A program made the position numbers and the translations under genes. A stretch of DNA of 64,000 bases, from positions 268,009 to 332,008 of the forward strand of contig JAHFLL010000001.1 in the NCBI GenBank assembly GCA_023244895.1, in the 5' to 3' direction. The notes beneath the pieces were generated by a model, which made no database searches, was not told the DNA's origin, and saw nothing but the letters and a program-made list of their open reading frames with translations. This document shows positions 3,727 through 42,136 of the stretch, one piece after another; the stretch's first letter is position 1; the number at the start of each line of letters is the position of its first letter. Source of the DNA: Candidatus Liptonbacteria bacterium. GTDB lineage: Bacteria; Patescibacteriota; Minisyncoccia; UBA6257; 2-01-FULL-56-20.

Positions 3727-4083
3727 TTCGGTAATTCGTAAGCCGGATTCTGTGCCTCCGAAAAATCGGAGCGGTAATCATTTCTCTGGACCCTCGATTA
3801 CTCTCGGGTTCTTGCGGCACAAACCATTGCTTACGCAATGGAGTACGACCTTGCACCCAGTAAGGATTTAGCCGTTTCACTCCTGCTTTTTTGTCCCTAT
3901 GGCAGGATTAAGCCAACTAGCTTGGGATCGGGCTCTCTTGGCTCTTTCGGACCAAGACGTCACTGCTCGCACCTCTCGCATTACTGCGGTCCGCCGTTAG
4001 CGGATACGCTTGTCTCGCGAAGCGAGACTGGTGTCCGGACTTTCCTCTCCTTGAAAAATCAAAGAGCGATTACCTGAATTACG
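3726..4083 (-). ncRNA. rnpB: RNase P RNA (bacterial type A-like)
   Basis: Minus strand carries CR-I GGAAAGUCCGGAC (complement of 4033-4045) and CR-IV ACAGAAUCCGGCUUAC (complement of ~3737-3755). P1 pairs GUAAUUC with GAAUUAC. Ends are approximate. Confidence 0.75.
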
Positions 4084-10514: not shown

Positions 10515-11237
10515 TTAAGATTGTTTCTTGAATGCTTCCACGATCTTGTCTAAATCTCCGTCCAAAATCTTCTCTATGTTATGAAACTTTTTACCGATGC
10601 GGTGGTCCGTAATCCTGTCTTCCGGGAAGTTGTAGGTACGAATCTTTTCGGAGCGGTCTGCACTACCAATTTGCTCGTTACGGTTCAGACCTGATTTTTT
10701 TGCCTCTTCTTCCATTTGAGCTTCGTGCAGCTTGGCCCGCAAAATTGTCATGGCGCGTTCGCGGTTGCCATGCTGGGAGCGTTCTACCCGGGAAGATATT
10801 ACGATGCCAGACGGTTTGTGAAGCACGCGTACCGCGCTTTCAATTTTATTCACATTCTGTCCGCCCGGCCCGCCTCCACGCGAGAAAGTTACTTCCAGAT
10901 CGCCTTCGTTTATTTGGACCTCTTTGGCTTCTACCTCCGGCATAATCGCGACGGATGCGGTAGAGGTGTGTACCCGGCCGGCTTTCTCGGTCTTAGGCAC
11001 TCTTTGTACGCGGTGCACGCCGGACTCCTGTTTTAGAGCGTCGTAGCAACCCTCGCCGGATATACCTGCCACAAAAGATTTATATCCGTATAAGGAAGTT
11101 TCGTTACTGTCTATTATGCTAAAGCCCCAGCCGCGCCTTTGGGCATACCTTTGATACATGCGCGCCAAGTCGCCCGCGAAGATGGCGGCTTCGTCTCCGC
11201 CCGCACCGGCTCTGATTTCTAAAATAATCTTATTCAT
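10515..11237 (-). CDS. prfA: Class I peptide chain release factor (RF1-like) lacking N-terminal domain 1
   Basis: GGQ motif SRGGGPGGQNVNK, RVQRVPKTEKAGRVHTS and an RF1-like C-terminus. The protein starts at RF1 domain 2 (ILEIRAGAGGDEA). An in-frame TAA sits 2 codons upstream of the ATG. Confidence 0.75.
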   Translation of the reverse strand: MNKIILEIRAGAGGDEAAIFAGDLARMYQRYAQRRGWGFSIIDSNETSLYGYKSFVAGISGEGCYDALKQESGVHRVQRVPKTEKAGRVHTSTASVAIMPEVEAKEVQINEGDLEVTFSRGGGPGGQNVNKIESAVRVLHKPSGIVISSRVERSQHGNRERAMTILRAKLHEAQMEEEAKKSGLNRNEQIGSADRSEKIRTYNFPEDRITDHRIGKKFHNIEKILDGDLDKIVEAFKKQS

Positions 11238-15175: not shown

Positions 15176-15471
15176 ATACCTCGCGTCTGATATGGGCGGT
15201 CCCTGCTGAACCGACAGCTTTTTGATAATTGAGACCCGTCATCTTTCGACAATTCAAGATGATCCATCTTGAACGGAGTCGAAAGATAAAAACAATAAAT
15301 CAGAAATAAGAGTTTTCTAGTTGTCCCAATGACAAACCCGATGAATGTACTTTACAGACATCGGTTCCGATCACGGTTTTTCACGCAAGTGAACTTTGCG
15401 AATTTGCATGGTTACTCCATTTGCAAATTCGCGTAGTCATTTTATCTTCGGATAAAATGGGTCGCGATCTT

Positions 15472-17009
<1,538 letters not shown>

Positions 17010-28028: not shown

Positions 28029-28065
28029 GACGGAACCTGAATTAGGAAATTAACAGTTGGGATAT

Positions 28066-28112
28066 GTAAAAACGATTTGGCTCCACCCCGGACGGGTGGA
28101 GCCTTGTCGATC
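28066..28112. terminator. Bidirectional terminator shared by efp and the island F gene
   Basis: GGCTCCACC-CCGGACG-GGTGGAGCC flanked by an A-run and a T-rich run. Confidence 0.6.
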
Positions 28113-28116
28113 TTAC

Positions 28117-29004
28117 TTAGGGGTCGGGTATATACGTCCCGCAGTTTGGACATTTGTACCCGTGCCCATTGCGGTACATGACCGCGTCGCAATCATCGCA
28201 CTTCCTATCTCCGTGCACGGGCTCTTTCTCTCCGTTTACGCCCGCGCAGAAACGAGCTTCGGGAGACAGGAATTCGATCGCCAGCCACCGGAAGACGTAG
28301 TCCACGATGGACTTCGCGAACCGAATCTTCGGATGTCTGGTCATCCCCGACGGTTCGAAACGCATGTGGCTGAACCTGTCTACCAGCGTCTCGAGAGGTA
28401 CGCCGTACTGCAGGGCAATTGTGATTGCACTGGCAAACGCGTCCGCGAAGCCCGAGATCATCGAGTCCCCGTTGGCCATCACGAGGAACAAGTCGGCGGG
28501 CTTGCCGTCTTCGTATCGCCCGACGGTTACGTAGCCCTGGTGGCCACCGATGTCGAACTTGTGGGAGAGGGCGCGTCTGTCTTCAGGTGGTCTGCGGCGC
28601 TCAACATCCATCCGTCTGGATGCCTTGGCGAGATCGCCAAACTTCAGATCCAGCCACCGGAAGATGTAGTCCGCGATGGATTTTGCGAATCCAATTCGCG
28701 GATGCTTGGTCATCCCGGATGGCTCGAAGCGCATGTGGCTGAACCTGTCTACCAGCGTCTCGAGAGGGACGCCGTACTGTAGGCAGTACGACACCGCCCG
28801 CGCGAATGCGTCCGCGAAGCCGGAGAGGGTTGACCCCTCCTTAGCCATCACGAGGAACAGCTCTCCGAGAGTGCCGTCCTCGTAGAAGCCTACCGTGATG
28901 TAGACTTTGTGCCCACCGATTTTAACTCGGTGCACGAGCGCGTTGCGCTCGTCCGGTAGCGTCCGCCGGAGGGGCGGGTTTACTAACGAGCTGCTAGCGC
29001 TCAT
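28117..29004 (-). CDS. Tandem-duplicated (~130 aa x2) domain protein resembling the class II ribonucleotide reductase C-terminal (TSCPD-like) domain, with C-terminal zinc ribbon. GC-rich island F.
   Basis: Two repeats share ...GGH.GY.TVG.YEDG...LFLVMA...SGFADAFA.A....LQYGVPLETLVDRFSHMRFEPSGMT.HP.I.FAKSI.DY.FRWL. The tail carries CDDCD...CPNCG. The antisense 241-aa ORF is rejected. Confidence 0.4.
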   Translation of the reverse strand: MSASSSLVNPPLRRTLPDERNALVHRVKIGGHKVYITVGFYEDGTLGELFLVMAKEGSTLSGFADAFARAVSYCLQYGVPLETLVDRFSHMRFEPSGMTKHPRIGFAKSIADYIFRWLDLKFGDLAKASRRMDVERRRPPEDRRALSHKFDIGGHQGYVTVGRYEDGKPADLFLVMANGDSMISGFADAFASAITIALQYGVPLETLVDRFSHMRFEPSGMTRHPKIRFAKSIVDYVFRWLAIEFLSPEARFCAGVNGEKEPVHGDRKCDDCDAVMYRNGHGYKCPNCGTYIPDP

Positions 29005-29126
29005 CCTCTTTATCTTCCTTTCTGGTTTAACAGCTGACTTTCTTATATCAGAATATAATTTAAAGTCAAATCCGGGTTCCGCTATCCTTGTCTTTTTGCC
29101 AAGATGTTCAATAATTTGGAAGTTAC

Positions 29127-30324: not shown

Positions 30325-30846
30325 ATGGAAGAGATAGAGCTAACATATCTAGCGAAAAATTTACCAGATGGCATTTTGGAATTCCCCAGCAAGGAGATTT
30401 TGGATATTTATCTTCCGTCTTCCGCGGTTCATCCCGGGCTACGCATCCGAAAGTCGGGAGATAAATACGACATAACCAAAAAGCGTCCGCTAAAGGAGGG
30501 CGACTCTTCTTATCAGCTGGAAACGACCGTACCTCTTACCCCCGAAGAATATTCGGAAATAAGCACGCTCCCGGGCAAGAGGGTCCGCAAGATTCGTTAC
30601 TATTACGAGCAGAATGGTGCGAGCTATGAAGTAGACGTTTTCAAAGATAATCTGGAGGGCCTGGTCTTGGTGGATATTGAGTTCAAGACCGTGGAGGAAA
30701 AAGATAGTTTTGTAATGCCCGACTTCTGCCTGCGGGAAGTGACTCAGGAAACGTTTATTGCGGGAGGCATGGTCTGTGGCAAAAAGTACAGCGACCTAGA
30801 GGGTGACCTAGAGAGGTTTGGATATAAGCCATTATTTCTCAAATGA
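30325..30846 (+). CDS. CYTH-like (triphosphate tunnel metalloenzyme) domain protein
   Basis: EIELTY, RIRK and EVDVFKDNLEGLVLVDIEF acidic motifs. Stop overlaps the next start (ATGA). Confidence 0.45.
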   Translation: MEEIELTYLAKNLPDGILEFPSKEILDIYLPSSAVHPGLRIRKSGDKYDITKKRPLKEGDSSYQLETTVPLTPEEYSEISTLPGKRVRKIRYYYEQNGASYEVDVFKDNLEGLVLVDIEFKTVEEKDSFVMPDFCLREVTQETFIAGGMVCGKKYSDLEGDLERFGYKPLFLK

Positions 30847-31370
30847 TTATATTGATAACCGGAGATGGTAAAGGGAAGACCACTTCCGCCTTGGGGCAGA
30901 TGATGCGGGTTTTGGGGCGGGGTAAGTCCGCGCTTATGATCCAGTTTATTAAGGGCCCCTGGATATCGGGGGAAGATAAGTTTGGGGAAAAATATCATAT
31001 ATCAAACGATAAGTTTCAAATAAGAAAAAGAGGCTTGGGGTTTGTGGGGATTTTGGGAGACAAACTGCCCCGAGAAGAGCACGCGCGAGCGGCCAAGAGC
31101 GCCCTGGAGGAGTTCGGGAGAGAGCGGGAGTCCGGTAATTGGCACCTAATAGTTTTAGACGAGATTAATGTCGCGCTTTCTTTGGAGTTGCTGACGATAC
31201 AAGAAGTTTTAAACGCTATTAAGGATTATCCCGAAGATAGCTTACTGATGCTGACCGGCCGAGGCGCGCCCCAGGAATTGATTGATTTAGCGGATCTAGT
31301 GACGGAAACTAAGGACATTAAGCACCCCTACCACGACGGTCAGGATGCCAAGCCGATGGTGGAATTCTAG
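30843..31370 (+). CDS. cobO: Cob(I)alamin adenosyltransferase (CobA/CobO/BtuR family)
   Basis: MIILITGDGKGKTTSALGQMMRVLGRGKSALMIQFIKG closely matches the BtuR/CobA P-loop region. HLIVLDEIN also matches. Confidence 0.75.
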   Translation: MIILITGDGKGKTTSALGQMMRVLGRGKSALMIQFIKGPWISGEDKFGEKYHISNDKFQIRKRGLGFVGILGDKLPREEHARAAKSALEEFGRERESGNWHLIVLDEINVALSLELLTIQEVLNAIKDYPEDSLLMLTGRGAPQELIDLADLVTETKDIKHPYHDGQDAKPMVEF

Positions 31371-40591: not shown

Positions 40592-42136
40592 ATGGACAAG
40601 AAAACTAAAAAAGCGCCAGTTGTGGAAAACGAGCAGGAAAAAATAGGTAAGTTTATCGCGGACTTACGGGAAAGATTGGGTTTAACCCAAGAGGATTTAG
40701 CCAAAGAGCTTAAAACCAGCCAAAGCGCTATCGCGCGCATGGAGGCGGGCGAGCAAAATTTCTCAACCGAAATGCTTGGTAAATTAAGCCATGCCCTAAA
40801 CCGACCGATTATTCAACTCGCGAGCGGAGCGGTTAACTTCAAGATTGAGGGCGGGCACAAGCTTTCCGGCACGATAGTTACCAATACTTCCAAAAACTCC
40901 GCGGTCGGCCTCTTAATGGCCACGCTCATCAATAAAAATAAAACGATTCTGAAAAGAATGCCTCGCATAGAAGAGGTGTATCGTTTGTTGGAGGTACTGG
41001 AAAGCTTGGGCGTATCAACCAAATGGCTGGAGGGCAATGACTTGGAAATCGTTCCGCCCGCCAAGCTTAACCTGGCGGGACTTAACACCGAATCCGCCAC
41101 CCGCACCCGTAGCGTGCTAATGTTGCTCGGCCCGCTTATCCATCTTTTTCCGGAATTCAAACTGCCTTATCCGGGTGGCTGTAAATTGGGCAGACGCACG
41201 GTGCGACCGCATCTTTTCGCCCTAGAGAAATTGGGCGTGAAGATTAAGGCCACGCATGGTTATTATCATGTTAGGTCCAGTCGGCTAAGGGCGTCAGAGG
41301 TAGTGCTCTACGAATCGGGAGACACGGTAACCGAAAATGTGGTTATGGCGGCGGCACGGCTCGACGGAGTAACTACCGTCAAATTCGCCTCAGCCAACTA
41401 TATGGGCCAGGACGTTTGCCACTACTTGGAAGCCCTGGGCGTGCAAGTGGAGGGCATAGGCACCAGCACTCTTAGGATTTACGGCAAGTCGGAGATTGAT
41501 TCACCGGTAGTTTTTTACCCCGGCGAAGATCCCATTGAGTCAATGTTGTTTTTGTCGCTCGCGGCCACTACCAACTCTTCCATAACCATTGAACGTTGCC
41601 CGATAGACTTTTTGGAGCTGGAACTTCTGAAGTTGGAGAAGATGGGTTTCAAGTACAAAATATTAAAGCGTTACAAGTCTTATAATGGCTACACCAATTT
41701 GGTGGACATAAAAACTCTGCCGTCCAAGCTGAAGGCGCTGGAGGAAAAGATACATGCTCAGCCATTCCCGGGCATAAACATAGACAACTTGCCCTTCTTC
41801 GTGCCGGTAGCTACCCAGGCCAAGGGCACCACTTTAATTCACGACTGGACTTATGAAAATCGGGCAATTTACTACATGGAAATGGTCAAGCTAGGCGCGG
41901 ATGTGATTTTGGCCGACCCTCACCGAGTTTATGTGAACGGTCCGACCGAACTGCGGGGTGCGGAGGTAGTCTGCCCGCCCGCCTTGCGTCCGGCAGTCAT
42001 TATTCTAATCGGTATGTTGGCCGCTAAAGGAACTTCCGTCTTGCGCAACGTCTACTCCATCAATCGCGGTTACGAAGATTTGTGCAATCGTCTAAACAAG
42101 CTGGGCGCGAGGGTTGAAATAATGCAGGGGGTGTAG
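40592..42136 (+). CDS. murA: UDP-N-acetylglucosamine 1-carboxyvinyltransferase with N-terminal XRE-type HTH domain
   Basis: N-terminal LRERLGLTQEDLAKELKTSQSAIARMEAG. MurA core with KLSGTIVTNTSKNSAVGLLMA and the active-site Cys in PYPGGCKLGRR. Confidence 0.7.
   Translation: MDKKTKKAPVVENEQEKIGKFIADLRERLGLTQEDLAKELKTSQSAIARMEAGEQNFSTEMLGKLSHALNRPIIQLASGAVNFKIEGGHKLSGTIVTNTSKNSAVGLLMATLINKNKTILKRMPRIEEVYRLLEVLESLGVSTKWLEGNDLEIVPPAKLNLAGLNTESATRTRSVLMLLGPLIHLFPEFKLPYPGGCKLGRRTVRPHLFALEKLGVKIKATHGYYHVRSSRLRASEVVLYESGDTVTENVVMAAARLDGVTTVKFASANYMGQDVCHYLEALGVQVEGIGTSTLRIYGKSEIDSPVVFYPGEDPIESMLFLSLAATTNSSITIERCPIDFLELELLKLEKMGFKYKILKRYKSYNGYTNLVDIKTLPSKLKALEEKIHAQPFPGINIDNLPFFVPVATQAKGTTLIHDWTYENRAIYYMEMVKLGADVILADPHRVYVNGPTELRGAEVVCPPALRPAVIILIGMLAAKGTSVLRNVYSINRGYEDLCNRLNKLGARVEIMQGV

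What the first reader, a model, noticed from the sequence alone, without database searches (positions are those of the whole stretch)
28060..29010. Island F: internally duplicated protein resembling the C-terminal domain of B12-dependent (class II) ribonucleotide reductase plus a zinc ribbon, near a cobalamin adenosyltransferase gene
Two approximately 130-aa repeats are about 60% identical. Their conserved core GELFLVMA..GS..SGFADAFA.A....LQYGVPLETLVDRFSHMRFEPSG resembles the NrdJ C-terminal TSCPD-type domain, though the TSCPD Cys is not conserved. A CDDCD...CPNCG ribbon follows. About 1.8 kb downstream, after mnmA and the CYTH gene, is a clear CobA/BtuR adenosylcobalamin-forming enzyme (30843-31370). 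A free-standing duplicated RNR-tail domain is unusual. It could be a split or regulatory partner of an RNR, or a repurposed metal-binding module.
Basis: inference. Interest (0 to 1): 0.6.

Follow-up and report, generated by a model that had tools for sequence, protein, structure and literature searches.

The report
Stand-alone, doubled, redox-dead RNR tail protein
A small-genome (candidate phyla radiation-like) bacterium carries a horizontally acquired gene that encodes only the C-terminal tail of a B12-dependent ribonucleotide reductase, with its main module doubled and its two electron-shuttling cysteines lost, so it is a rare variant of a known module and probably acts by binding rather than as a split enzyme subunit.

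Summary
Window 28117-29004 (minus strand) encodes a 295-aa protein with two 110-aa repeats (68% identical, E=1e-56). Both repeats hit Pfam TSCPD (E=1.3e-27) and the C-terminal region of NrdJ (NCBIfam PRK06556, 320 bits). A CxxC...CxxC ribbon follows.

In published terms this is the NrdJ cysteine-rich domain (CRD): an IscU-like domain plus a zinc finger, free-standing as in NrdJb of split class II RNRs.

It is not a canonical NrdJb:
- The four zinc ligands are kept, but both redox-pair positions (Cys933/Cys945 equivalents) are Gly282 and Asp294.
- No RNR catalytic domain lies in the 64-kb window.
- The gene is a foreign island (GC3 0.75 against about 0.5), inserted between efp and mnmA. The closest relative found has no such gene there.

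It is a real gene. An 82% ortholog sits at the same site, dN/dS is 0.20 (0.10 for repeat 2), and it has its own terminator.

Wider searches found:
- ten short redox-dead CRD proteins, every one lacking both cysteines;
- at least six independent tandem duplications of the module;
- fusions of the module to defence-type SIR2 domains.

Most likely it is a non-redox CRD mimic acting by binding, probably to class II RNR. This is inferred, not shown. The BtuR proximity is coincidental.

The parts
28117..29004 (-). Complete gene, 295 aa plus TAA stop: a free-standing, internally duplicated NrdJ cysteine-rich-domain (CRD) protein
   Evidence: ORF list. Pfam TSCPD in two stretches. NCBIfam NrdJ models. 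Identical protein P0001 in public data and an 82% ortholog P0002. dN/dS 0.20 against the ortholog.
28639..28968 (-). Repeat 1 (residues 13-122): IscU-like / TSCPD-type module of NrdJ
   Evidence: Self-alignment at 68% identity, E=1e-56. Keeps 29 of 30 family-invariant residues. dN/dS about 0.40, so more relaxed than repeat 2. AF2 gives a beta-beta-beta, two-helix, beta, helix order.
28600..28638 (-). Inter-repeat linker (residues 123-135)
   Evidence: Poorly conserved between orthologs, dN 0.29 against dS 0.38. pLDDT 65-68.
28270..28599 (-). Repeat 2 (residues 136-245): second IscU-like / TSCPD-type module
   Evidence: Keeps 30 of 30 family-invariant residues. dN/dS about 0.10. pLDDT 79-91.
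28201..28269 (-). Post-domain segment LSPEARFCAGVNGEKEPVHGDRK (residues 246-268). It corresponds to the canonical NrdJ FLSPEAQFRAGVN motif plus a much shortened linker, and has an Arg-to-Cys change at residue 253 shared by both orthologs
   Evidence: Comparison with canonical NrdJ C-termini and coordinates.
28120..28200 (-). Four-cysteine zinc ribbon (C269, C272, C285, C288). Gly282 and Asp294 occupy the positions of the NrdJ redox pair (Cys933/Cys945 of S. nassauensis NrdJd)
   Evidence: Pattern mapping. Cysteine roles from PMC5704485. Tail dN/dS 0.155 over residues 246-295.
28079..28103 (-). Intrinsic-terminator-like hairpin (10-bp stem, 8 G-C pairs, then a T-rich tail) 14 bp after the stop codon
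   Evidence: The sequence is conserved in the orthologous locus L001.
29005..29126 (.). 122-bp divergent intergenic region between this gene and mnmA. It holds a Shine-Dalgarno-like AAGGAAG/AGAGG just upstream of the ATG. L001 has a further GC-rich 122-aa ORF inserted in this region

Best explanation
What it is (well supported). The gene encodes only the C-terminal cysteine-rich domain (CRD) of a class II, B12-dependent ribonucleotide reductase of the NrdJd-like type. An ancestor of two closely related small-genome (Patescibacteria/CPR-like) bacteria acquired it by horizontal transfer into the efp-mnmA junction. The IscU-like (TSCPD) module was then duplicated in tandem, and purifying selection has kept the gene since. 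The four zinc-ligand cysteines are retained. Both cysteines of the putative redox-active pair have been lost.

How it works (inferred). It cannot shuttle electrons to an RNR active site the way NrdJb or a fused CRD does. It most likely uses the other documented property of the CRD, protein-protein association. The two IscU-like modules, which each keep the family's invariant residues, would form an intramolecular pseudo-dimer or a bivalent adaptor, stabilised by a structural zinc ribbon. This would dock onto a class II RNR, either at the CRD docking site near the cofactor cleft or onto the enzyme's own CRD. That would modulate re-reduction or higher-order oligomerisation. In short, it would be a redox-dead CRD mimic or regulator rather than a catalytic partner.
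For: Identity:
- Pfam TSCPD in two stretches and NCBIfam NrdJ models.
- Nearest homologs are NrdJ C-termini at 65-70% identity per repeat.

Foreign origin and insertion:
- GC3 is 0.75 (0.77 in the ortholog) against 0.49-0.59 for flanking genes.
- Its repeats nest in the NrdJd-like clade and are only about 50% identical to Patescibacteria NrdJ CRDs.
- The closest relative found, L094 (efp 88% identical), has efp-mnmA without it. L099 and L100 have gaps of 177 and 97 bp.

Real and functional:
- The same junction appears in independent assemblies.
- dN/dS is 0.20 overall, 0.10 for repeat 2 and 0.155 for the tail, with dS equal to that of flanking genes.
- It has its own terminator and a Shine-Dalgarno-like site.

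Redox-dead:
- Mapping onto C-x2-C-x9-C-x2-C-x2-C-x5-C gives G282 and D294 at the Cys933/Cys945 positions.
- 352 of 362 ribbon-bearing homologs keep both cysteines, 10 lack both and none lacks just one.
- All six cysteines were needed for TCEP-driven activity in S. nassauensis NrdJd, while C933A and C945A kept zinc (PMC5704485).

Binding role:
- The CRD mediates tetramer/hexamer formation, and NrdJb binds NrdJa tightly near the cofactor cleft (PMC5704485, PMC4520616).
- Both repeats keep 29-30 of 30 invariant residues.
- Tandem duplication arose independently at least six times in detached modules, which suggests the working unit is a pair.
- The AF2 model has pTM 0.69.

Host probably uses NrdJ:
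- BtuR is present.
- nrdJ lies immediately upstream of btuR (gaps of 7-476 bp) in six related loci, within about 3 kb in two more, and on the same contig in a ninth (L120).
- Essentially all of the 240 listed Patescibacteria-type NrdJs carry a fused TSCPD domain.
Against: - No RNR gene was seen in the 64-kb window. I could not show that the host genome has one. Two searches with CPR NrdJ queries did not return a protein from the 840,672-bp contig, which is inconclusive because only the top 120 hits are listed.
- In S. nassauensis a separately expressed CRD did not restore TCEP activity to the CRD-less enzyme, so binding in trans is not guaranteed for NrdJd-type CRDs.
- The protein comes from a distant lineage and is only about 50% identical to Patescibacteria CRDs, so recognition of the resident enzyme is uncertain.
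- Repeat 1 evolves about four times faster at non-synonymous sites than repeat 2.
- None of the other free-standing tandem or redox-dead proteins I could place lies next to an nrdJ.
- The inter-domain geometry could not be inspected, because no coordinates or PAE were available.
Confidence: 0.5

Rival explanations
1. It is a genuine NrdJb-type subunit of a split class II RNR. It supplies the C-terminal domain in trans to a CRD-less NrdJ encoded elsewhere in the genome, with reduction achieved by another route, for example direct reduction of the active site or use of Cys253.
For: It has the free-standing IscU-like plus zinc-ribbon architecture, as in NrdJb (PMC9669993 and PMC5704485). BtuR in the window implies AdoCbl use. 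An Arg-to-Cys change at residue 253 is shared by both orthologs.
Against: Both redox-pair cysteines are replaced, whereas the phage NrdJb-like proteins (L092, L093) and 352 of 362 ribbon-bearing homologs keep them. No nrdJa is adjacent or anywhere in the window, while known nrdJa/nrdJb genes form an operon (PMC4520616). The gene is compositionally foreign and absent from the closest relative found, so it did not arise by fission of the host gene. Essentially all listed Patescibacteria-type NrdJs already carry a fused CRD.
Confidence: 0.12
2. It is a sensor or decoy module in phage-host conflict. The tandem NrdJ-tail module recognises a phage or host RNR-related protein or a purine dNTP signal, as it presumably does when fused to a SIR2 effector. 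Here it acts with a partner encoded elsewhere, or as a decoy.
For: Three 50%-identity clusters (P0121, P0139, P0123) fuse a defence-type SIR2_2 domain (ThsA/LmuA/Dsr1-like by PADLOC) to the same tandem module. P0121 lies beside a phage-type integrase and an M78 peptidase. The efp-mnmA junction carries different GC-rich cargo in three related genomes, which is typical of variable islands. Loderer et al. suspected an extra purine-dNTP site tied to CRD-dependent oligomerisation.
Against: The window protein has no PADLOC hit and no effector domain. No defence gene is adjacent, and the neighbours are housekeeping genes. The SIR2-fused modules stem from a separate duplication and are only about 42-44% identical.
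Confidence: 0.15
3. It is a decaying remnant of a transferred nrdJ 3' end, or an assembly or annotation artefact, with no function.
For: It is foreign in composition, very rare (two clusters of one member each among about 15 billion proteins) and has lost residues essential for the parent function. Repeat 1 is under relaxed constraint.
Against: The 295-codon frame is intact in two genomes that have diverged to dS 0.55. dN/dS is 0.20, and 0.10 in repeat 2. 29-30 of 30 invariant residues are kept in each repeat. The terminator is conserved. The junction is identical in independent assemblies. No RNR-barrel remnant lies upstream.
Confidence: 0.05
4. It is an IscU-like iron-sulfur or other metal-handling scaffold, unrelated to RNR function.
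Against: The cysteine ligands are absent: each module has at most one cysteine (C74 only). The sequence nests within NrdJ tails, not within stand-alone TSCPD proteins. The only metal site left is a CxxC...CxxC structural ribbon.
Confidence: 0.03

Closest known systems
NrdJb, the small subunit of split class II RNR (NrdJa+b subclass; Pseudomonas aeruginosa; PMC4520616)
   Same: A free-standing polypeptide that consists of the NrdJ C-terminal domain, that is, the IscU-like domain plus zinc finger (PMC9669993).
   Different: NrdJb is encoded with nrdJa, has one IscU-like module and carries the redox-active cysteines that re-reduce NrdJa. The window protein has two modules, lacks both redox cysteines, has no nrdJ within the window and is a foreign insertion.
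Cysteine-rich domain (CRD) of NrdJd, Stackebrandtia nassauensis (PMC5704485)
   Same: This is the closest sequence type (PRK06556-like tail). It shares the motif order RRxLPDER...GEhFLVMAKEGS...LQYGVPL...FSHxRFEPSG...DYxFRW...FLSPEA...CxxC...CxxC, and the zinc ligands Cys920/923/936/939 are all retained.
   Different: The window protein is detached from the catalytic barrel and its module is duplicated. The long linker before the ribbon is shortened. The Cys933 and Cys945 equivalents are Gly and Asp, and all six cysteines were required for CRD-dependent turnover in NrdJd.
Full-length NrdJ with a duplicated IscU-like domain (SSN clusters 5-7 of Burnim et al. 2022; example P0143, 1086 aa)
   Same: Tandem IscU-like modules followed by a zinc ribbon.
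   Different: P0143 keeps the catalytic barrel and the six-cysteine tail. Its duplication is independent of the window protein's: its own repeats are 38% identical, against 68% here.
Stand-alone TSCPD-domain proteins (Pfam PF12637)
   Same: Passes the Pfam gathering threshold and is not fused to an RNR barrel.
   Different: Classic stand-alone TSCPD proteins carry the conserved cysteines and the TSCPD motif. This protein is the cysteine-less NrdJ-tail subtype.
SIR2_2-tandem-TSCPD fusion proteins found here (P0121, P0139, P0123)
   Same: A tandem NrdJ-type module detached from any RNR, with the FxHxRFEPSG and AKSxxDY motifs kept.
   Different: These have an N-terminal defence-type SIR2 effector and no zinc ribbon, and they arose from a separate, older duplication. 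I found no description of them in the papers I read.

Membership tests
Pfam TSCPD domain (PF12637) | HMM score above the gathering threshold | tested here: met
   96.4 bits against a cutoff of 22.8, in two stretches.
Pfam TSCPD domain (PF12637) | Conserved cysteines and TSCPD motif of the stand-alone, IscU-like Fe-S-type members | tested here: not met
   The only cysteines outside the ribbon are C74 and C253. The motif region reads RFEPSG.
Class II ribonucleotide reductase NrdJ (NCBIfam PRK06556 / PRK07562 equivalogs) | Full-length match above the curated cutoff, including the catalytic barrel (PF02867) | tested here: not met
   320.7 bits against a cutoff of 859, with only model positions about 740-859 of 960 matched. 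No Ribonuc_red_lgC hit. No barrel remnant anywhere in the window.
NrdJ cysteine-rich domain (CRD; Loderer 2017) | Homology to the 150-220-aa C-terminal domain of non-monomeric NrdJ | tested here: met
   Each repeat is 65-70% identical to NrdJ tails. 29-30 of 30 invariant residues are kept in each repeat.
NrdJ cysteine-rich domain (CRD; Loderer 2017) | Array of six conserved C-terminal cysteines (four zinc ligands plus a redox pair) | tested here: not met
   Four of six are present. G282 and D294 replace the Cys933/Cys945 equivalents.
NrdJb (split class II RNR subunit) | CRD encoded as a separate polypeptide | tested here: met
   A 295-aa ORF with its own start, Shine-Dalgarno-like site and terminator.
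NrdJb (split class II RNR subunit) | Encoded next to nrdJa in an operon | tested here: not met
   No RNR barrel within the window, which extends about 28 kb to one side and 35 kb to the other. The neighbours are efp and mnmA.
NrdJb (split class II RNR subunit) | C-terminal redox-active cysteines that mediate thiol-disulfide exchange | tested here: not met
   Both are absent. The phage NrdJb-like proteins in L092 and L093 keep them.
NrdJb (split class II RNR subunit) | Forms a 1:1 complex with NrdJa and stimulates activity | not testable with these tools
   Needs biochemistry. The host NrdJ could not even be located.
IscU/NifU Fe-S scaffold | IscU-like alpha+beta fold | tested here: inconclusive
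IscU/NifU Fe-S scaffold | Three cysteine cluster ligands | tested here: not met
   The ligand cysteines are absent.
Known anti-phage defence proteins (PADLOC-DB 2.0) | A match to any PADLOC model | tested here: not met
   No hit for the window protein. The SIR2-fused relatives hit ThsA/LmuA/Dsr1 models through their SIR2 part only.

The most novel reading that the evidence does not exclude
The paired IscU-like module of the NrdJ tail may be an autonomous recognition unit that evolution has detached from RNR many times. The evidence is the 10 redox-dead stand-alone forms, the six or more independent tandem duplications and the fusions to defence-type SIR2 NADases. In that reading the window protein would be a stand-alone sensor, decoy or inhibitor aimed at class II RNRs (host or phage) or at purine dNTP levels. 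That would make it a new class of RNR-directed regulator or immune sensor in ultra-small bacteria, rather than an RNR subunit.
Probability: 0.17. Interest if true: 0.75.

Novelty: new variant of a known kind. Interest (0 to 1): 0.5.

Why it matters
Two things about the NrdJ C-terminal domain are still unknown. One is the function of its IscU-like part, present in about 70% of class II RNRs. The other is its physiological reductant (PMC5704485, PMC9669993).

Natural proteins that keep the IscU-like module and the zinc site but have cleanly lost the redox pair act as separation-of-function variants. They argue that the module has a selectable activity independent of electron transfer. The repeated tandem duplications suggest that the activity needs a pair of modules.

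The all-or-none loss of the two cysteines (10 proteins lack both, none lacks one) independently supports the proposal that Cys933 and Cys945 work as a pair. That proposal previously rested on a homology model.

The SIR2 fusions suggest a link between RNR-tail modules and phage defence that could be tested. For the organism, this is one of few clearly foreign genes kept under selection in a roughly 0.84-Mb genome.

Tried and rejected
1. Looking up the exact protein's contig failed: it is not on record. Context came instead from the ortholog (L001) and from the flanking efp gene (L082).
Neither the source genome nor any tandem relative was recovered.
3. A metagenome scan for the family-specific NGHGYKCPNCG motif gave 0 hits.
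4. Two attempts to find the host's own NrdJ used CPR NrdJ queries and looked for a hit on an 840,672-bp contig. None appeared in either top 120, which is inconclusive.
5. 122-aa ORFs next to TSCPD genes in L001, L156/L157 and L083/L084 looked like a recurring partner. They are unrelated by BLASTP, so this was coincidence.
6. The 241-aa plus-strand ORF 28057-28782 is a shadow ORF of the GC-rich gene. The substitution pattern fits the minus-strand frame.
7. PDB sequence search found no significant match. Foldseek against the PDB found nothing at E<0.01. The afdb50 library was unavailable.
8. A literature search for 'TSCPD' and for CPR plus RNR plus cobalamin gave nothing useful.
9. A prfB-type frameshift site was not found upstream of ORF 10515-11237.
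10. BtuR as a functional neighbour was rejected, because btuR occupies the same position in relatives that lack the gene.
Full report
THE OBJECT

Window 28117-29004 on the minus strand is a 295-codon ORF with an ATG start and a TAA stop. It is the only minus-strand gene in a run of plus-strand housekeeping genes: SMC, S16, a KH protein and EF-P on one side, and MnmA, a 173-aa ORF, BtuR/CobO, S2 and Tsf on the other.

Residues 13-122 and 136-245 align without gaps at 68% identity (E=1e-56). Pfam TSCPD (PF12637) matches twice (E=1.3e-27, 96 bits against a cutoff of 22.8). The NCBIfam NrdJ equivalog PRK06556 matches at 320 bits over model positions about 740-859 of 960. That is far below its whole-protein cutoff of 859, so the protein is a piece of an RNR and not an RNR.

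The last 27 residues form a CxxC...CxxC ribbon (C269, C272, C285, C288).

WHAT THE DOMAINS ARE, IN PUBLISHED TERMS

Loderer et al. 2017 (PMC5704485) defined a 150-220-aa cysteine-rich domain (CRD) at the C-terminus of about 70% of non-monomeric NrdJs.
- It ends in six conserved cysteines. By homology modelling and mutagenesis, Cys920, 923, 936 and 939 bind zinc, and Cys933 and Cys945 form the putative redox pair.
- All six were needed for TCEP-supported turnover.
- The CRD also drives dATP/dGTP-induced tetramer and hexamer formation.
- In the NrdJa+b subclass the CRD is a separate gene, nrdJb.

Crona et al. 2015 (PMC4520616) showed that NrdJb binds NrdJa near its C-terminus and the rim of the cofactor cleft.

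Burnim et al. 2022 (PMC9669993) showed by AlphaFold that the CRD is an IscU-like domain plus a zinc finger. They also showed that NrdJb has the same two parts and that the IscU-like domain is duplicated in some NrdJ clusters.

My AF2 model (pLDDT 77.9, pTM 0.69) has two modules with the order beta-beta-beta, two helices, beta, helix, followed by a small beta ribbon.
- Foldseek finds nothing in the PDB at E<0.01.
- In BFVD the only matches at E<=0.001 are phage RNR pieces.

THE KEY DIFFERENCE FROM THE KNOWN FAMILY

Canonical tails among the hits read ...FLSPEAQFRAGVN-(long linker)-CSTCGSIMxRSGxCYKCxNCGTTSGCA. The window protein reads ...FLSPEARFCAGVNGEKEPVHGDRK-CDDCDAVMYRNGHGYKCPNCGTYIPDP.

In register with C-x2-C-x9-C-x2-C-x2-C-x5-C, the four zinc ligands are present. 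The Cys933 and Cys945 positions are Gly282 and Asp294, and the same holds in the 82% ortholog P0002.

I counted all 508 homologs collected. Of the 362 with a terminal CxxC...CxxC ribbon:
- 352 keep both extra cysteines;
- 10 lack both;
- none lacks only one.
The ten are all short proteins (163-354 aa) without an RNR barrel. Free-standing NrdJb-like proteins in two phage contigs keep all six cysteines.

So the protein fails two defining features of NrdJb and the CRD, namely the redox pair and the linkage to nrdJa. It meets the homology and free-standing criteria.

IT IS A REAL, SELECTED, FOREIGN GENE

Composition. GC is 0.593 and GC3 is 0.753, against 0.48 for the window and GC3 of 0.49-0.57 for the neighbouring genes.

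Ortholog. L001 (GCA_964529845.1) carries the ortholog in the same SMC-S16-KH-efp | gene | mnmA setting.

Selection, by Nei-Gojobori estimates:
- dS is 0.55, like the flanking genes (0.48-0.78), so the gene has been inherited vertically since the two genomes split.
- dN/dS is 0.20 overall: 0.40 for repeat 1, 0.10 for repeat 2 and 0.155 for the tail including the ribbon.
- GC3 is still 0.77 in the ortholog.

Conserved residues. Each repeat keeps 29-30 of the 30 columns that are invariant in a 48-sequence alignment of NrdJ tails.

Expression signals. A 10-bp G+C-rich hairpin with a T tail follows the stop codon and is conserved in L001. AAGGAAG/AGAGG precedes the ATG.

Not an artefact. An independent Logan assembly (L082) is 100% identical across the efp-gene junction.

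Insertion. Loci recovered through the BtuR protein include L094, the closest relative found (efp 88%, BtuR 82% identical). It has KH-efp-mnmA-...-BtuR-S2 but no such gene. Its 497-bp efp-mnmA gap holds a different GC-rich 88-aa minus-strand ORF. L099 and L100 have gaps of only 177 and 97 bp. L001 has an extra GC-rich 122-aa ORF beside the gene. The efp-mnmA junction is therefore an insertion hotspot, and the gene arrived after the L094 lineage branched off.

Source. The two repeats are sister sequences nested within the NrdJd-like clade. They are 65-70% identical to such tails but only about 50% identical to Patescibacteria NrdJ CRDs.

Age of the duplication. dS between the repeats (0.86-1.11) modestly exceeds dS between orthologous repeats (0.62). 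The duplication therefore predates the split of the two genomes, but not by much.

RARITY AND RELATIVES

The exhaustive search of 1.84 billion cluster representatives gave 7396 hits, but only about a dozen tandem proteins. The family-specific ribbon motif is absent from JGI metagenome contigs.

The free-standing tandem forms are:
- P0003, P0124, P0127 and P0145 (no ribbon);
- P0004 (domain-ribbon-domain, with Tyr and Ala at the redox positions);
- P0132 (repeats 93% identical, with a different four-cysteine ribbon, followed by a rhodanese gene in two contigs).

P0143 is a full-length NrdJ with a tandem module and a six-cysteine tail.

In a neighbour-joining tree of single modules, repeats 1 and 2 are each other's closest relatives in six lineages: the window protein with P0002, and P0003, P0004, P0127, P0132 and P0145. 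The module has therefore doubled independently at least six times (no bootstrap support was calculated).

Unexpectedly, P0121, P0139 and P0123 fuse a defence-type SIR2_2 domain to the tandem module (Pfam E=1e-26; PADLOC ThsA/LmuA/Dsr1-like). P0121 lies beside a phage-type integrase and an M78 peptidase.

P0158 is a single-module redox-dead protein. Its gene has GC 0.55 in a locus of GC 0.42 with TsaD, a tRNA synthetase and type IV pilus genes, flanked by small orphan ORFs. That is a second case of the same kind of acquisition.

THE B12 LINK

ORF 30843-31370 is a clear BtuR/CobO. Its position is ancestral, because it sits in the same place in relatives without the gene. Proximity is therefore not evidence of coupling.

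BtuR is informative about the host, though. Among 62 related loci, a full-length nrdJ lies immediately upstream of btuR (gaps of 7-476 bp) in six, within about 3 kb in two more, and on the same contig in a ninth (L120). All eight whose C-terminus I read have intact six-cysteine CRDs. NCBI names the closest database relatives of these NrdJs Patescibacteria, Parcubacteria, Sungbacteria and similar, and essentially all 240 listed carry a fused TSCPD domain.

By inference the host uses AdoCbl for an NrdJ that has its own CRD. I could not verify this. No RNR barrel is in the window, and the host's NrdJ was not among the top hits of either search.

MECHANISM

Shown:
- The protein is a CRD homolog with a retained zinc site and no redox pair.
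- It is under purifying selection.
- It is foreign.

Inferred:
- It cannot perform the CRD's electron-shuttle role, so selection must act on the CRD's other property, association.
- Both modules keep the invariant surface residues, and detached modules repeatedly become tandem. I therefore propose a pseudo-dimeric or bivalent binding unit.
- This unit would dock on class II RNR, either at the CRD site near the cofactor cleft or on the enzyme's own CRD, and change re-reduction or oligomerisation. It would be a redox-dead mimic or regulator.

I give the combined statement about 0.5. Identity is about 0.9, and the RNR-binding mechanism is about 0.35-0.4.

Rivals:
- true NrdJb-type subunit (0.12);
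- conflict-system sensor or decoy (0.15);
- non-functional remnant (0.05);
- Fe-S scaffold (0.03).

VERDICT

This is a new variant of a known kind. A free-standing CRD (NrdJb) and duplicated IscU-like domains are both published. I did not find the following described in the papers I read:
- a redox-dead, tandem, horizontally acquired stand-alone CRD in a CPR-like genome;
- the all-or-none loss of the cysteine pair in ten stand-alone proteins;
- the recurrent independent duplications;
- the SIR2 fusions.

Interest is moderate (0.5).

Noticed in passing
P0121 (584 aa), P0139 (573 aa), P0123 (377 aa, truncated); loci L083 5519-7273 and L084 656-2410: A defence-type SIR2_2 domain (PADLOC ThsA/LmuA/Dsr1-like) is fused to a tandem NrdJ-type TSCPD module with no zinc ribbon. 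In L083 it sits beside a phage-type integrase and an M78 peptidase gene. This could be an undescribed defence architecture that uses an RNR-tail module as its sensor.
   Followed up: partly
Window 28029-29126; L001 1450-2097; L094 2234-2726: The efp-mnmA junction is an insertion hotspot. It holds this gene in the window, this gene plus a GC-rich cysteine-containing 122-aa ORF and a hairpin in L001, and an unrelated GC-rich 88-aa minus-strand ORF in L094. It is nearly empty in L099 (177 bp) and L100 (97 bp).
   Followed up: partly
L142, L131, L130, L129, L136, L150 (nrdJ ends 7-476 bp before btuR at about 10001); L121 and L128 within about 3 kb; L120 on the same contig: In many Patescibacteria-type contigs a full-length nrdJ with a six-cysteine CRD lies directly upstream of a btuR/cobO adenosyltransferase gene. 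This is an apparent nrdJ-btuR operon that ties AdoCbl formation to the RNR in these small genomes.
   Followed up: partly
P0126, P0132, P0141, P0150, P0151, P0158, P0184, P0246; L156 8001-8594: Eight further short proteins (163-354 aa) keep a four-cysteine ribbon after an NrdJ-type module but lack both redox-pair cysteines. P0158 is itself a GC-rich (0.55) gene in a GC 0.42, CPR-like locus, flanked by orphan small ORFs, two of them cysteine-rich.
   Followed up: partly
L085 8001-9449 and L086 1133-2581: The tandem protein P0132 (repeats 93% identical) is followed 43 bp downstream by a 118-aa rhodanese gene in two independent contigs.
   Followed up: no
Window residue 253 of the protein (codon at 28243-28245, minus strand): An Arg-to-Cys change in the otherwise conserved FLSPEAQFRAGVN motif is shared by the window protein and its 82% ortholog. 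Its role is unexplained.
   Followed up: no
Window 10515-11237 (-): A 240-aa ORF with PCRF and RF-1 domains begins at position 100 of the PCRF model and lies in a GC-rich stretch (0.557). No CTTTGA frameshift site was found upstream, so it may be a truncated or unusual release-factor gene.
   Followed up: partly
Window 40592-42136 (+): A 514-aa ORF fuses an N-terminal XRE-type HTH_3 domain (E=1.5e-15) to a full EPSP-synthase/MurA-type domain (E=6e-41). This is an unusual architecture.
   Followed up: no
Window 15470-17009 (+), 3727-4082 (-): A complete bacterial 16S rRNA gene with no 23S gene detected anywhere in the 64-kb window (an unlinked rRNA arrangement), and an RNase P RNA scoring just above threshold (103 bits against 100).
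   Followed up: no
Only one of the 62 BtuR-related loci (L096) matched it by tblastn.
   Followed up: partly
P0367, P0392, P0403 and others (1250-1350 aa): Many Patescibacteria NrdJs in the hit lists carry intein domains (PF14528/PF14890) inserted in the RNR.
   Followed up: no
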